From contig DDYF01000039.1 in the NCBI GenBank assembly GCA_002347645.1, positions 68,541-132,540 of the forward strand: a stretch of DNA of 64,000 bases. The letters are read 5' to 3'. The stretch is from Thermoleophilia bacterium UBA2241. Lineage in GTDB: Bacteria > Actinomycetota > Thermoleophilia > UBA2241. Numbering within the stretch: the stretch's first letter is position 1; every line of letters begins with the position of its first letter. The position numbers and the translations under genes are program-made. The notes beneath the pieces were generated by a model that saw nothing but the letters and a program-made list of their open reading frames with translations, was not told the DNA's origin and searched no databases. Below are positions 50,928-56,033 of the stretch, in pieces.

Positions 50928-51365
50928 ATGGCGGGCAGGCTGAACGTGAGCGAGGCGCGCAGAGACTTCTCGGCCCTCGTCGAGAGAGCGGGACGGGGCG
51001 ACTGGCAGGTGATCGGCCGACGCGGCCAAGCGGAGGTGGTGCTCGCCGACGGTCGCGAACTCGACGAGCTGCTCTCGCGCTGCTACCCCTTCGCCCCCGA
51101 AGTGTCCTTTGAGCACGAGAACGTCGGCATCTACCTGCTGGAGCTCGCCGTGCACGGCGTCGGCACGTCGCTGCCGCAAGCGCAGGCCGACTTGATGGAT
51201 GCGGCCACCGCGTACGTCGCCGAGTGGGTCGAGTGGCTGCATGCCGCTCCGGACCACCGTGACAGGGCCGGCTGGGTCCGACGTGTCCAGCTCGCCGCCG
51301 ACGACCCAGCTGCCCTGGGACGCACCCTGTTCGGCGACGCGTATCAGCCGCTCGCGACCCAGTGA
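50928..51365 (+). CDS. Putative type II antitoxin with a Phd/YefM-like N-terminal domain and an extra C-terminal domain, 145 aa
   Basis: MAGRLNVSEARRDFSALVERAGRGDWQVIGRRGQAEVVLADGRELDELL resembles the Phd/YefM fold. A GAGGA Shine-Dalgarno and AT-rich palindromes (TTGTACAA, GTATAC) sit in the 5' region. Confidence 0.5.
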   Translation: MAGRLNVSEARRDFSALVERAGRGDWQVIGRRGQAEVVLADGRELDELLSRCYPFAPEVSFEHENVGIYLLELAVHGVGTSLPQAQADLMDAATAYVAEWVEWLHAAPDHRDRAGWVRRVQLAADDPAALGRTLFGDAYQPLATQ

Positions 51366-51372
51366 CGGGCCC

Positions 51373-51804
51373 GTGAGGCTCGCCCGCAAGAGTGACGTGC
51401 GCCGCTTCTGCCAGATCGACGGCTGGTGGTGCACCGCCGACGCACCCGGATCTCGCGTCGCCAAGCACGTGGTCTGGGTCAAGACCCTGCCCGACGGCAT
51501 GGTGCTGCGCGTCGCCATCTCGAAGGGTCGCGGCGAGTACACGCGCCTTTTGTTCGCGCAGATCCTCAAGCACGAGCTGCGCGTCAATGGGCGCGACTTT
51601 TGGCGAGCCGTCGACAAGGGCGTCGCCCCGGCGCGTCCGGAGCAGGCCGGTACCCGTCGACCCGAGGGTGCCGCCTTGCCGCTCGCGCTGGTCGCACGCC
51701 TGCTCCGCGCCGGCTACGCCGAGAGCGACCTGCACGGACTCACTCGCGAGCAGGCGGAGAGCCTGCCGACGAACACAGAGTCCCCTCGTCAGCCGCCAGC
51801 CTGA
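51373..51804 (+). CDS. Putative toxin partner: HicA/YcfA-like domain with a C-terminal extension, 143 aa
   Basis: GTG 51373 lies 8 nt after the upstream stop. SDVRRFCQIDGWWCTADAPGSRVAKHVVWVKTLPDGMVLRVAISKGRGEYTRLLFAQILKHEL aligns to the HicA pattern (..DGW.....GSH..KH.........IP...G.L..ILKQ). Speculative. Confidence 0.4.
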   Translation: MRLARKSDVRRFCQIDGWWCTADAPGSRVAKHVVWVKTLPDGMVLRVAISKGRGEYTRLLFAQILKHELRVNGRDFWRAVDKGVAPARPEQAGTRRPEGAALPLALVARLLRAGYAESDLHGLTREQAESLPTNTESPRQPPA

Positions 51805-54408: not shown

Positions 54409-55149
54409 CTACGGCAGCGCGGTCCCCTTGATCACCTTGCCGTCGAAGACCGGCACGACCTTCACCTGGTCGAAGGCGAACGAATACGGGAGCACGTCGT
54501 CCAGGCCCAGGTTCTTCAGACGATGGCGTTGAGCCGCCTTCTCGATGTAGCCCAGCACGTCGCCCTCGGCCAGGCTCCACAGATCCATCGACGCGTGGGC
54601 CGAATCGCACTCGGTCCGGAACTTGCCCGTGTCCAACAGCCGACGTGTCAGCGCTCCGGCGAAGAGCGTGTCCTCGAGGCAGAACCTGTTCTGCCATCCC
54701 GAGCAGAGGATGACCACGTTCTTCCGCTGCCTCGCAAGCCGCGCCGTCAGGGCGGAGATGTTGACGAAGGCGCCGATCGCGACGCCGCCGGCGCCCTTCG
54801 CGAGGCGGAGCGCTCGCGTGCCGTTGGTCGTGCAGTAGACGAGCGTCTTGCCACCGATGGCGTCTCTGGTGAAACTCAACGCCGAGTTGCCGAAGTCGGC
54901 GAAGTCGAGTTGCACGCCGTCCTTCTCGGAGGCGACCAGGAACCCTTCCGACTTGAGCCGCCTTGCTTCCTCGTGTGAGGCGACGGGGATGATCTCCTCC
55001 ACCCCGTTCGCGACCGCCGTGCAGATGGTGGTCGCGGCGCGCAGGACGTCGACCAGCACGACGATGAAGTCGTCCTTCGTCAGGATGTCCTGGAACAACC
55101 CGGGCGAGAGGCACACCTCGACGCTCCTCGTCTCGTGCAACTCCGTCAT
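54409..55149 (-). CDS. 2-phosphosulfolactate phosphatase (ComB) family protein
   Basis: 246 aa from the internal ATG MTELHETRSV of ORF 54409..55695, behind an AGGAAGG Shine-Dalgarno. VLVDVLRAATTICTAVANG and VYCTTNGTRAL match the ComB family. Confidence 0.75.
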   Translation of the reverse strand: MTELHETRSVEVCLSPGLFQDILTKDDFIVVLVDVLRAATTICTAVANGVEEIIPVASHEEARRLKSEGFLVASEKDGVQLDFADFGNSALSFTRDAIGGKTLVYCTTNGTRALRLAKGAGGVAIGAFVNISALTARLARQRKNVVILCSGWQNRFCLEDTLFAGALTRRLLDTGKFRTECDSAHASMDLWSLAEGDVLGYIEKAAQRHRLKNLGLDDVLPYSFAFDQVKVVPVFDGKVIKGTALP

Positions 55150-55280
55150 CCTTCCTGTCGACACGGCACGGCCACGAGCCGGACGGTGCGACAATAGCAG
55201 TCGCGACAGGTGTGTGACGTCGACTCCGGCAGAAGTACCCCGGCGCGGCGGCGCGGCCCGACACGACGAGGAGCGAGCGG

Positions 55281-55811
55281 ATGACAGCCATCGACGACCC
55301 GGATCACGGCGCGGCCGGCGCCGACCCAGGCCCTTTCGTCGTGTCGCGTCCCTGCCCCGTGTGCCAAGGGCAGGGCGCCACCAACGGACAGCCCTGCCCC
55401 ACGTGCCACGGAACGGGCGTGCAGCGGTTCTTCCACGGCACGAAGGCCGACCTGAAGCTGGGCGACCTGATCGAGCCCGGCCGTTCCCCCAACTTCGGTG
55501 ACCTCGAGCGGACGACGAACTTCGTCTACCTGACCGGCACCCTAGATGCGGCCGTCTGGGGAGCGGAGCTGGCCGTCGGCGAGGGGTCAGGCAGGATCTA
55601 CATCGTCGAGCCGACCGGCCCGATCGAGAACGACCCCAATCTGACGGACAAGAAATTCCCCGGGAATCCGACGAAGTCGTACCGCTCCCGGGCACCGCTG
55701 CTGGTCACGGGCGAGGTCACCGACTGGAAGGGGCACGCTCCGGAAGAGCTCAAGGCGATGAAGGACGGCCTCGAGCGACTCAAACAGCAGGGCATCGAGC
55801 CCATTGACTGA
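55281..55811 (+). CDS. arr: Rifampin ADP-ribosyltransferase (Arr family) with an N-terminal DnaJ-type CxxCxGxG x2 zinc finger
   Basis: The Arr core reads FFHGTKADLKLGDLIEPG...TNFVYLTGTLDAAVWGAELAVGEGSGRIYIVEPTGPIENDPNL. The N-terminal extension reads CPVCQGQGATNGQPCPTCHGTG. ATG sits behind a GAGGAG Shine-Dalgarno. Confidence 0.75.
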   Translation: MTAIDDPDHGAAGADPGPFVVSRPCPVCQGQGATNGQPCPTCHGTGVQRFFHGTKADLKLGDLIEPGRSPNFGDLERTTNFVYLTGTLDAAVWGAELAVGEGSGRIYIVEPTGPIENDPNLTDKKFPGNPTKSYRSRAPLLVTGEVTDWKGHAPEELKAMKDGLERLKQQGIEPID

Positions 55812-55834
55812 CCGCGACGCTTCCCGCATGCCTG

Positions 55835-55926
55835 TCAAGCATCAGCCGAAGCCGGCGTCAAGCATCAGCCGAAACAGTCGTCAATGATCAGGCGAGTCAC
55901 TGTCAAGCAGCAGGTGACGCTGGAGT
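55835..55926. repeat. Four tandem direct repeats of about 22-23 bp (GTCAAGCATCAGCCGAAnnnnnn, degenerating 3'-ward) between arr and tRNA-Met
   Basis: Copies start at 55835, 55858, 55881 and 55903. The first two are 17/17 identical and the later ones diverge (GTCAATGATCAGGCGAG, GTCAAGCAGCAGGTGAC). Confidence 0.5.
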
Positions 55927-55956
55927 GTCCAGTGTCACCCGAAACACGACAGGCGG

Positions 55957-56033
55957 TGGTGGGCCCAGCAGGACTCGAACCTGCGACCGGCCGATTATGA
56001 GTCGGCTGCTCTAACCAACTGAGCTATAGGCCC
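55957..56033 (-). tRNA. tRNA-Met (anticodon CAT), elongator type (possibly tRNA-Ile2 if the anticodon is lysidinylated), CCA encoded
   Basis: The reverse complement reads GGGCCTATAGCTCAGTTGGTTAGAGCAGCCGACTCATAATCGGCCGGTCGCAGGTTCGAGTCCTGCTGGGCCCACCA. The anticodon loop is CUCAUAA. The anticodon stem is not initiator-like. Confidence 0.8.

What the first reader, a model, noticed from the sequence alone, without database searches (positions are those of the whole stretch)
55281..55811. Arr rifampin ADP-ribosyltransferase carrying an N-terminal DnaJ-type zinc finger
The C-terminal 140 aa are a clear Arr-family enzyme (FHGTKADL...NFVYLTGTLDAAVWGAELA...GRIYIVEPTGP). Known Arr proteins are single-domain. 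This one has an extra 35-aa N-terminus with two CxxCxGxG repeats (CPVCQGQG...CPTCHGTG), the DnaJ/zinc-ribbon signature. The extension could help recognise a substrate or partner. Arr homologues have been suggested to modify targets other than rifamycins. It would also be a chromosomal rifampin-resistance determinant. The gene sits next to a tRNA-Met gene and a tandem-repeat block, which may point to horizontal acquisition.
Basis: partly seen in the sequence, partly recalled or inferred. Interest (0 to 1): 0.6.

Follow-up and report, generated by a model that had tools for sequence, protein, structure and literature searches.

The report
Arr rifamycin-resistance enzyme with inserted zinc knuckle
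This gene encodes a real antibiotic-inactivating enzyme (Arr, which disables rifampicin-type drugs) carrying a small, conserved zinc-binding hairpin in its N-terminal tail; this is a rare, apparently undescribed variant of a well-known enzyme, not a new kind of system.

Summary
ORF 55281-55811 (+) encodes a 176-aa protein. Residues 48-175 are a full Arr NAD+:rifamycin ADP-ribosyltransferase: NCBIfam 206 bits against a cut-off of 130, and about 60% identity to Arr-ms. The catalytic residues H52/Y83/D118 and nearly all rifampin-pocket residues are conserved. Residues 17-48 carry GPFVV plus two CxxCxGxG motifs.

The N-terminus is translated. The ATG is the first start in the ORF and has a GAGGAG Shine-Dalgarno 7 nt upstream. 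No Met lies between the finger and the domain. The finger's dN/dS is 0.27, against 0.23 for the enzyme domain. All four Cys are invariant in the aligned homologues.

The module is half a DnaJ zinc domain. It most resembles the single Cys4 hairpin of anti-TRAP (same C-x2-C-x10-C-x2-C spacing).

The architecture is rare but recurrent. It occurs in 12 species genomes from Actinomycetota, Chloroflexota and Myxococcota, in about 15 clusters among 1.84 billion representatives, and in none of 1,733 Arr-bearing plasmids. Three orthologues carry exact rifamycin-associated elements upstream; the window copy does not.

The finger sits where the Arr-ms tail (F9) touches rifampin, so a lid or brace role is most likely, but this is inferred. 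The tRNA and repeat evidence for horizontal acquisition is not supported. Verdict: new variant of a known kind, moderate interest.

The parts
55268..55273 (+). Shine-Dalgarno-like GAGGAG, 7 nt upstream of the ATG
   Evidence: Read directly from the sequence. In-frame GTGs at codons 21, 27 and 47 have no comparable motif upstream.
55281..55811 (+). ZnF-Arr coding sequence (176 aa plus stop)
   Evidence: This is the first start codon after the upstream in-frame stop. Independent gene callers on four metagenome contigs chose the same start. Pfam, NCBIfam and PDB matches support the identification.
55281..55328 (+). Variable leader, residues 1-16 (MTAIDD...), predicted disordered
   Evidence: dN/dS is 0.88 and pLDDT is below 50. 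'M-[AT]-A-I-D-D' matches the N-terminus of plain Arrs of the same clade, 'MAAIDDLSSQRFYHGT'.
55329..55424 (+). Zinc-knuckle module, residues 17-48: GPFVV strand plus C25xxC28xGxG-x6-C39xxC42xGxG (one predicted Cys4 zinc site)
   Evidence: GPFVV, the four Cys and GTGV are invariant in 12 full-length homologues. dN/dS is 0.27 and pLDDT is 81-84. Foldseek matches anti-TRAP 2BX9 over 24 residues at rmsd 0.6 A. phmmer aligns query 24-49 to anti-TRAP 11-36 and query 17-46 to the DnaJ zinc domain 1EXK 45-74.
55425..55808 (+). Arr catalytic domain, residues 49-176 (H52, Y83, D118; rifampin-pocket helix M160-K-D-G-L164...L167)
   Evidence: NF033144 scores 206 bits against a cut-off of 130. Foldseek matches 2HW2 with TM 0.82 and 60% identity.
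55913..55939 (.). Hairpin GGTGACgCTGGA-gtg-TCCAGtGTCACC between the convergent Arr gene and tRNA-Met; probable bidirectional terminator (context)
   Evidence: A 12-bp stem appears in the MFE and centroid folds. The whole intergenic region has a z-score of -2.85.

Best explanation
The gene encodes a functional Arr-family NAD+:rifamycin ADP-ribosyltransferase. A roughly 30-residue zinc hairpin of the DnaJ/anti-TRAP type has been inserted into its N-terminal tail. The hairpin has one Cys4 site (C25, C28, C39, C42) and lies between a conserved GPFVV strand and strand beta1, which carries the NAD-binding His52. Shown here: the whole ORF is translated and conserved, the enzyme core keeps the H-Y-D catalytic residues and the rifampin-pocket residues, and orthologues in some lineages sit behind the rifamycin-associated element. 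Inferred: the protein still inactivates rifamycins by ADP-ribosylating the ansa-chain C23 hydroxyl. Also inferred, at about 35-40% on its own: the zinc hairpin is a rigid brace or lid. It replaces the flexible tail that in Arr-ms (Phe9) lies against the naphthoquinone side of bound rifampin. On this reading it tunes stability or rifamycin range and does not redirect the enzyme to another target.
For: Identity: Pfam, NCBIfam and PDB matches, and a model superposing on 2HW2 at TM 0.82.

Catalytic residues: H19/Y49/D84 of Arr-ms correspond to H52/Y83/D118, invariant in 12 homologues.

Pocket residues: F39, M126, L130, L133, V87, L92, P96, K91, N86, T88, K90 and S99 are conserved or conservatively replaced, and the M[RK][DE]xL motif is present as MKDGL (residue list from PMC6092378).

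Translation of the N-terminus: first start in the ORF, SD GAGGAG at -13 to -8, GC3 of 0.83 in codons 1-48, and ZnF dN/dS of 0.27 against 0.23 for Arr over 13 genes. The same architecture occurs in 12 species genomes, 12 full-length protein clusters and about 30 fragment clusters.

Link to rifamycin: exact RAE 19-mers lie 86-156 nt upstream of ZnF-Arr in L006, L009 and L011. The 19-mers are listed in bioRxiv 10.1101/2025.08.06.668190.

Position of the finger: the alignment places knuckle 2 (H43-G46) on Arr-ms residues 12-15. Arr-ms K-P-F9-E-V-H12 resembles G-P-F19-V-V-S-H23, and F9 contacts the rifampin C14 methyl (PMC6092378). Only 4-5 residues separate the finger from beta1.

No conserved partner gene exists, which fits an intramolecular role.
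Against: No activity data exist for any ZnF-Arr. The window copy has no RAE within 3 mismatches anywhere in the 64 kb, so rifamycin-inducible expression is not shown here. Two positions differ from Arr-ms (A139 to E, and S37 of the SN[FY] motif to P), although plain and tandem relatives share the Ser-to-Pro change. The relative placement of the finger rests on about 12 full-length sequences and a pLDDT-72 model. DnaJ/anti-TRAP-type modules are classically protein-binding elements, which favours the adaptor rival. The GPFVV similarity to the Arr-ms tail may be coincidental, because the same segment also aligns to the DnaJ 'QGFF/QGLFSF' hairpin.
Confidence: 0.7

Rival explanations
1. The zinc hairpin is a protein-protein adaptor or oligomerisation module. 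It would dock an otherwise ordinary Arr onto a partner (RNA polymerase, ribosomal protein L11/RplK, a chaperone) or assemble it into oligomers, as anti-TRAP does. The drug would then be inactivated near its target, or the enzyme would be regulated.
For: The closest sequence and structure relatives of the module (DnaJ zinc domain, anti-TRAP) are protein-binding elements (their roles are from general knowledge). Arr-ms has reported non-catalytic roles and an interaction with RplK (cited in PMC8120803). The finger is as constrained as the enzyme.
Against: No conserved neighbouring gene exists in 13 loci. The anti-TRAP C-terminal helix that mediates assembly is absent, because the Arr domain follows immediately. 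The finger is tethered by only 4-5 residues next to the substrate cleft. There is no interaction evidence.
Confidence: 0.22
2. The enzyme has been retargeted. The finger recognises a macromolecule (protein, DNA or RNA) and the ART domain ADP-ribosylates it, with rifamycin modification secondary or lost.
For: Arr's action on rifampin has been suggested to be a secondary function (PMC8120803). Zinc knuckles can bind nucleic acids or proteins. The window copy lacks an RAE.
Against: The rifampin-pocket residues, including helix alpha2 (M160/L164/L167), are conserved. The NCBIfam equivalog cut-off is exceeded by a wide margin. Three orthologues carry exact RAEs. There is no toxin-antitoxin-like or glycohydrolase partner nearby.
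Confidence: 0.06
3. Annotation artefact. The real start lies downstream (GTG at V47, position 55419), and the finger is untranslated 5' sequence or a fused fragment.
For: An in-frame GTG exists at codon 47. High-GC genomes produce long spurious ORF extensions.
Against: dN/dS is 0.27 over the finger, with an invariant Cys4 and GPFVV across three phyla. An SD is present only at the ATG. The MTAIDD leader matches the canonical N-terminus of plain Arrs in this clade. Four independent gene calls chose the same start.
Confidence: 0.02

Closest known systems
Arr-ms (M. smegmatis rifampin ADP-ribosyltransferase, PDB 2HW2/9IAF) and Arr-2 (9IBA)
   Same: About 60% identity over residues 43-173. Same fold (TM 0.82), same H-Y-D residues, same rifampin-pocket residues and the same M[RK][DE]xL helix.
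   Different: Arr-ms is 143 aa with an unstructured 18-residue tail before H19. Here a 33-residue longer tail contains a Cys4 zinc hairpin. A139 becomes E and S37 becomes P. The window copy has no RAE.
Anti-TRAP (RtpA, PDB 2BX9/3LCZ)
   Same: Ungapped alignment of query 24-49 to anti-TRAP 11-36. This places C25/C28/C39/C42 on positions 12/15/26/29, with identical C-x2-C-x10-C-x2-C spacing. Foldseek gives rmsd 0.6 A over 24 residues.
   Different: HMM scores fall below the family cut-offs (19.8 vs 32; 25.7 vs 65). There is no C-terminal helix. The context is a fusion to an enzyme and there is no TRAP system, so it is not a member.
DnaJ central zinc-binding domain (PF00684, PDB 1EXK)
   Same: The CxxCxGxG motif occurs twice. 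The preceding G-x-F hairpin aligns to actinobacterial DnaJ 'QGLFSFSQPCPxCxGTGxxIxDPCPTCRGTGVE', covering repeats 3-4.
   Different: Only two of the four repeats are present, so there is one zinc site where DnaJ has two. There is no J domain or C-terminal substrate domain. The score is below the Pfam gathering threshold (26.4 vs 32.7).
Tandem Arr-Arr proteins (~240-245 aa, uncharacterised, environmental)
   Same: Their C-terminal domains are the closest relatives of the query's Arr domain (mean 76% identity). They also carry an N-terminal add-on fused to an intact Arr and share the 'MAATDD' leader.
   Different: Their add-on is a truncated, often catalytically degenerate Arr copy, not a zinc hairpin.
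Arr-X / Arr-1 groups (eLife 2026, PMC13246000)
   Same: Sequence-divergent Arr subgroups that differ in rifamycin preference. This is a precedent for Arr variants that tune substrate range.
   Different: They are single-domain enzymes. No zinc module or N-terminal domain is mentioned in that paper ('zinc', 'domain' and 'N-terminal' give 0 hits).

Membership tests
Arr (NAD+--rifampin ADP-ribosyltransferase; PF12120 / NF033144) | Profile score above the curated cut-off | tested here: met
   PF12120 scores 156.8 bits (cut-off 25). NF033144 equivalog scores 206.4 bits (cut-off 130).
Arr (NAD+--rifampin ADP-ribosyltransferase; PF12120 / NF033144) | H-Y-D catalytic/NAD residues (Arr-ms H19, Y49, D84) | tested here: met
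   These are H52, Y83 and D118, invariant in 12 ZnF-Arr homologues. The residue list comes from PMC13246000 and PMC8120803.
Arr (NAD+--rifampin ADP-ribosyltransferase; PF12120 / NF033144) | Rifampin-binding cleft residues and the alpha2 M[RK][DE]xL motif | tested here: met
   F72, M160, L164, L167, L121, F126, P130, K125, N120, T122, K124 and S133 are conserved or conservatively replaced. MKDGL is present. Exceptions are A139 to E and S37 to P (list from PMC6092378).
Arr (NAD+--rifampin ADP-ribosyltransferase; PF12120 / NF033144) | Arr fold (two beta-sheets, two helices forming the cleft) | tested here: met
   AF2 model with pLDDT 72. Foldseek against 2HW2 gives E 1e-16 and target-normalised TM 0.82.
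Arr (NAD+--rifampin ADP-ribosyltransferase; PF12120 / NF033144) | ADP-ribosylates rifamycins and confers resistance | not testable with these tools
   This needs an enzyme assay or MIC measurement.
Arr (NAD+--rifampin ADP-ribosyltransferase; PF12120 / NF033144) | Rifamycin-associated element (19-bp palindrome) upstream. This is typical of actinobacterial rifamycin-resistance genes but not strictly defining. | tested here: not met
   The window has no match within 3 mismatches. Exact RAEs lie upstream of ZnF-Arr orthologues in L006, L009 and L011.
DnaJ central zinc-binding domain (PF00684) | Pfam gathering score | tested here: not met
   26.4 bits against a cut-off of 32.7. Only profile positions 35-65 of 65 are matched.
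DnaJ central zinc-binding domain (PF00684) | Four CxxCxGxG repeats forming two zinc centres, within a J-domain chaperone | tested here: not met
   There are only two repeats and no J-domain or C-terminal DnaJ match.
Anti-TRAP (PF15777 / NF058604 RtpA) | Profile score above the curated cut-off | tested here: not met
   19.8 bits against 32, and 25.7 bits against 65.
Anti-TRAP (PF15777 / NF058604 RtpA) | Single Cys4 zinc hairpin, C-x2-C-x10-C-x2-C | tested here: met
   Ungapped alignment 24-49 to 11-36. Foldseek rmsd 0.6 A over 24 columns with 46% identity. Zinc binding itself was not tested.
Anti-TRAP (PF15777 / NF058604 RtpA) | C-terminal helix for trimer/dodecamer assembly and TRAP binding | tested here: not met
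   The Arr beta1 strand starts 4-5 residues after the second knuckle, so no helix is present.

The most novel reading that the evidence does not exclude
The zinc hairpin is a docking module. It would tether Arr to a macromolecular partner such as RNA polymerase, so that rifamycin is modified at or near its target. Alternatively, it would redirect ADP-ribosylation to a protein or nucleic-acid substrate. Either way, ZnF-Arr would be the first Arr with a built-in targeting domain.
Probability: 0.12. Interest if true: 0.7.

Novelty: new variant of a known kind. Interest (0 to 1): 0.35.

Why it matters
Arr is a clinically important rifamycin-resistance enzyme: it gives intrinsic resistance in M. 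abscessus and is carried as plasmid arr-2/3 in Gram-negatives. It is normally described as a minimal ~16 kDa single-domain protein. This small conserved family has a zinc hairpin inserted in the tail that, in Arr-ms, touches the drug. The family also appears in lineages where it is wired to the rifamycin-associated element. It therefore offers a natural experiment on how the rim of the rifamycin pocket shapes stability and substrate range, which is relevant to C25-modified and other Arr-evading rifamycins. Together with the abundant tandem Arr-Arr relatives, it shows that environmental Arr diversity includes multi-module forms that resistome surveys treat as ordinary Arr. It does not change the basic picture of how Arr works unless the adaptor or retargeting reading proves correct.

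Tried and rejected
(1) A word-index protein search with the 62-aa N-terminus alone returned a single candidate and was uninformative. The profile version seemed to return only short proteins.

(2) The first AF2 run on 12 sequences gave pLDDT 55 and was discarded.

(3) The AFDB fold library was unavailable. Model coordinates were not exposed, so finger-to-pocket distances could not be measured.

(4) A search for an RAE in the window found none. The sigma-70 promoter scan found nothing, as expected for a high-GC actinobacterium.

(5) Genomic-island hallmarks around tRNA-Met were sought. There is no att-like repeat of the tRNA 3' end, no integrase and only a mild GC dip, so the island reading was rejected.

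(6) A search for a conserved partner gene across 13 ZnF-Arr loci found none.

(7) An NJ tree of Arr domains was too shallow to decide whether ZnF-Arr is monophyletic. The ZnF-Arrs fall in at least two groups mixed with plain and tandem forms, so no claim is made.

(8) The original Arr structure paper and the RAE paper were not held. Residue and motif information was taken from PMC6092378, PMC13246000 and bioRxiv 10.1101/2025.08.06.668190 instead.

(9) An Rfam scan of the flanks found only the tRNA.

(10) The organism could not be named. The exact protein occurs only on metagenome contigs. GC of about 70% and the best relatives point to Actinomycetota, which is an inference.

Full report
**Observation**

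The ORF at 55281-55811 (+) starts at the first start codon after the upstream in-frame stop and encodes 176 aa. Residues 48-175 are an unambiguous Arr domain:
- Pfam PF12120: E 1.7e-46.
- NCBIfam equivalog NF033144: 206 bits against a cut-off of 130.
- Solved Arr-ms structure 2HW2/9IAF: E 4e-51.

Residues 16-49 carry two CxxCxGxG motifs. They match the following specifically but below threshold:
- DnaJ_CXXCXGXG: 26.4 bits against 32.7, covering only the second half of the profile.
- Anti-TRAP: Pfam E 7.8e-4, NCBIfam RtpA E 9e-6.
- The DnaJ zinc-domain structure 1EXK: E 2.8e-6.

The tRNA-Met at 55957-56033 (-) and a 23-bp repeat at 55834-55895 are real.

**Is the N-terminus translated?**

Yes, on five grounds.
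- There is no Met between the finger and the Arr domain. The only alternatives are in-frame GTGs at codons 21, 27 and 47, and none has a ribosome-binding site. The ATG has GAGGAG at -13 to -8.
- GC3 in codons 1-48 is 0.83, with GC3 > GC1 > GC2, as in the rest of the gene.
- In 12 full-length homologous clusters (76-85% identity), G17-P-F-V-V21, P24, C25, P26, C28, G30, C39, C42 and G44-T-G-V47 are invariant.
- Across 13 genes (the window plus 12 species genomes), Nei-Gojobori dN/dS is 0.27 for residues 17-48, 0.23 for the Arr domain and 0.88 for the first 16 residues.
- The leader 'MTAIDD' matches the canonical N-terminus of plain Arrs in the same clade, 'MAAIDDLSSQRFYHGT'. The finger is therefore an insertion into an existing tail and not an upstream read-through. 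Independent gene callers on four metagenome contigs chose the same start.

**What the module is**

The exhaustive profile search places DnaJ fragments next after the ZnF-Arrs. Their 'QGLFSFSQPCPxCxGTGxxIxDPCPTCRGTGVE' segment, which is the hairpin plus repeats 3-4 of the DnaJ zinc domain, aligns to query residues 9-49. With only two repeats, the four Cys can form only one zinc site.

The ungapped phmmer alignment to anti-TRAP (query 24-49 against chain 11-36) puts C25/C28/C39/C42 on positions 12/15/26/29, with identical C-x2-C-x10-C-x2-C spacing. From my own knowledge, those four positions are the anti-TRAP zinc ligands.

A second AF2 run used a 99-row alignment: 12 full-length ZnF-Arrs, 29 N-terminal fragments and 58 single Arr domains. 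It gave mean pLDDT 72, with 81-84 over residues 21-50 and disorder over residues 1-18. Foldseek matched the Arr part to 2HW2 (TM 0.82) and the finger to anti-TRAP 2BX9 (24 residues, rmsd 0.6 A).

The protein is not a member of either the DnaJ or the anti-TRAP family. Cut-offs are not met, there are two repeats where DnaJ has four, and there is no J domain and no anti-TRAP C-terminal helix.

**How common it is**

- Species genomes: scanning 185,579 species-representative genomes with the junction profile found 12 ZnF-Arr genes. They come from Actinomycetes, Thermoleophilia, other Actinomycetota, Caldilineaceae, Ca. Epilinea, and Myxococcales/Polyangiales MAGs. The other 68 retrieved loci were plain or tandem Arr.
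- Representatives: among 1.84 billion 50%-identity representatives, only about 15 match the whole N-terminal and junction profile.
- 90% clusters: I saw 12 full-length clusters and about 30 fragmentary ones (29 extracted). Many of the fragments are frameshifted.
- Plasmids: none of 1,733 plasmid records with an Arr homologue carries the finger.
- Literature: I found no paper describing it. The combination 'rifampin ADP-ribosyltransferase' and 'zinc finger' gave one irrelevant review. The 2021 Arr genomic-epidemiology paper contains none of 'zinc', 'DnaJ', 'fus' or 'tandem'.

**Function of the enzyme part**

The Arr-ms catalytic residues H19/Y49/D84 (PMC13246000, PMC8120803) correspond to H52/Y83/D118, which are invariant in the family.

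The rifampin-contact residues listed in PMC6092378 map as follows:
- Identical: F39, M126, L130, L133, P96, K91, N86, T88, K90, S99.
- Conservative replacements: V87 to L, L92 to F.
- The M[RK][DE]xL helix motif is present as MKDGL.
- Not conserved: A139 to E, and S37 to P. The Ser-to-Pro change also appears in plain and tandem relatives.

Independent contextual support comes from the rifamycin-associated element (RAE). Exact RAE 19-mers, GGGGCTTGCGGCAAGCCCC and GGGGCTTGCGGCAAGGCCC, lie 86-156 nt upstream of the ZnF-Arr genes in L006, L009 and L011. These are two of the four RAE query sequences given in bioRxiv 10.1101/2025.08.06.668190. The RAE is the cis element associated with rifamycin-inducible resistance genes.

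The window copy has no RAE within 3 mismatches, so inducibility here is unknown.

**What the finger most likely does**

This section is inference. In the alignment, knuckle 2 (H43-G46) falls on Arr-ms residues 12-15, and only 4-5 residues separate the finger from strand beta1 with His52. The Arr-ms tail reads P-K-P-F9-E-V-H12-E-S-G-A-Y-L-H19. F9 belongs to the surface 'hydrophobic 2' patch that contacts the rifampin C14 methyl (PMC6092378). The invariant ZnF-Arr motif G-P-F19-V-V-S-H23 resembles K-P-F9-E-V-H12.

The finger is therefore inserted into the tail segment that, in Arr-ms, lies on the rim of the drug pocket. The most economical reading is a zinc-stabilised brace or lid that affects stability or rifamycin range. 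No conserved neighbour exists in 13 loci, which fits an intramolecular role.

The main rival is a protein-binding or oligomerisation adaptor, which is what DnaJ/anti-TRAP modules classically are. Arr-ms has reported non-catalytic roles and an RplK interaction. Retargeting to a macromolecule is disfavoured by the conserved pocket and the RAE linkage. An annotation artefact is essentially excluded.

**Horizontal acquisition**

The tRNA adjacency and the repeat block do not amount to island evidence:
- There is no duplicated tRNA 3' segment and no integrase.
- The neighbours are ordinary genes: MFS, PHD-like antitoxin, GNAT, OYE, PhzF and 2-phosphosulfolactate phosphatase on one side, and MMPL and TetR on the other.
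- GC dips only to 0.64-0.69, against about 0.70 in the flanks.

The intergenic region contains four roughly 23-bp 'GTCAAGCA' units and a 12-bp-stem hairpin, which is probably a terminator between the convergent genes.

At the family level, transfer is plausible. The same architecture occurs at 60-85% identity in three phyla, with unrelated neighbourhoods. The Arr-domain NJ tree is too shallow to say whether the finger arose once.

**Verdict**

This is a genuine, conserved, rare two-module Arr. It is a new variant of a known kind, probably still a rifamycin-inactivating enzyme, with an accessory zinc hairpin of untested role. Interest is moderate (0.35). It is a tidy target for enzymology and resistome annotation but not a conceptual surprise. 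That changes only if the adaptor or retargeting reading holds (about 12% probability), in which case it would be considerably more interesting.

Noticed in passing
Homologues P0002-P0120; loci L035, L048, L054: The closest relatives of this Arr are mostly two-domain Arr-Arr proteins of about 240-245 aa (about 108 of the top 120 hits). In 29 examined, the C-terminal half is a complete Arr. The N-terminal half is truncated: it has no alpha2 rifampin-pocket helix, the SN[FY] motif is lost, and H, Y or D is lost in 4, 7 and 9 of 29 respectively. It looks like a pseudo-enzyme domain. The Arr literature I could search does not mention these proteins.
   Followed up: partly
L006:5834-5852, L009:3703-3721, L011:5912-5930, L018:5823-5841: Exact (or, in L018, one-mismatch) rifamycin-associated element palindromes lie upstream of Arr genes in Thermoleophilia and unclassified Actinomycetota MAGs. 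A 2025 preprint reported the RAE as largely confined to class Actinomycetes.
   Followed up: partly
window 55834-55925: Four units of a 23-bp repeat begin with GTCAAGCA, at 55834, 55857, 55880 (degenerate) and 55903. They lie in the 145-nt spacer between the convergent Arr gene and tRNA-Met and occur nowhere else in the window. Their function is unknown; they could be protein-binding iterons or a slippage product.
   Followed up: partly
window 55913-55939: A strong hairpin (12-bp stem, 3-nt loop, no U-tract) lies between the two convergent genes. It is likely a bidirectional terminator. The whole spacer folds with a z-score of -2.85.
   Followed up: yes
Proteins P0137-P0142, P0146, P0151: Proteins of about 500 aa carry six tandem 'CPLCxGxGEHNxxxCPxCxGxG' double-knuckle units. 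P0137 has an HNH-like N-terminus. They show that the two-knuckle Cys4 hairpin is used elsewhere as an autonomous repeat module.
   Followed up: no
Proteins P0130, P0131, P0133, P0157, P0272-P0281: Many database ZnF-Arr entries are frameshifted or truncated, and some drift into the +1 frame and back. They often sit on long contigs. These are probably long-read indel errors and not pseudogenes, and they inflate the number of 'distinct' clusters.
   Followed up: no
window 54409-55695 (-) versus 54409-55116 (-): The mechanical ORF list extends the divergent upstream gene (2-phosphosulfolactate phosphatase family, PF04029, called as 235 aa) to 428 aa, overlapping the Arr gene on the opposite strand. 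This is a typical high-GC spurious extension.
   Followed up: partly
window 50928-51804 (L001 1648-2524): A PHD-like antitoxin-family gene is followed by a 143-aa ORF with no Pfam hit. This may be a toxin-antitoxin pair about 3.5 kb upstream of the Arr gene.
   Followed up: no
L016:5986-6486 (Ca. Epilinea brevis); P0134, P0278, P0289, P0291: A compact finger variant has no spacer between the knuckles (CSVCHGQGCARCYGTG). All four Cys are kept but the 10-residue loop is removed, so the loop itself appears dispensable.
   Followed up: no
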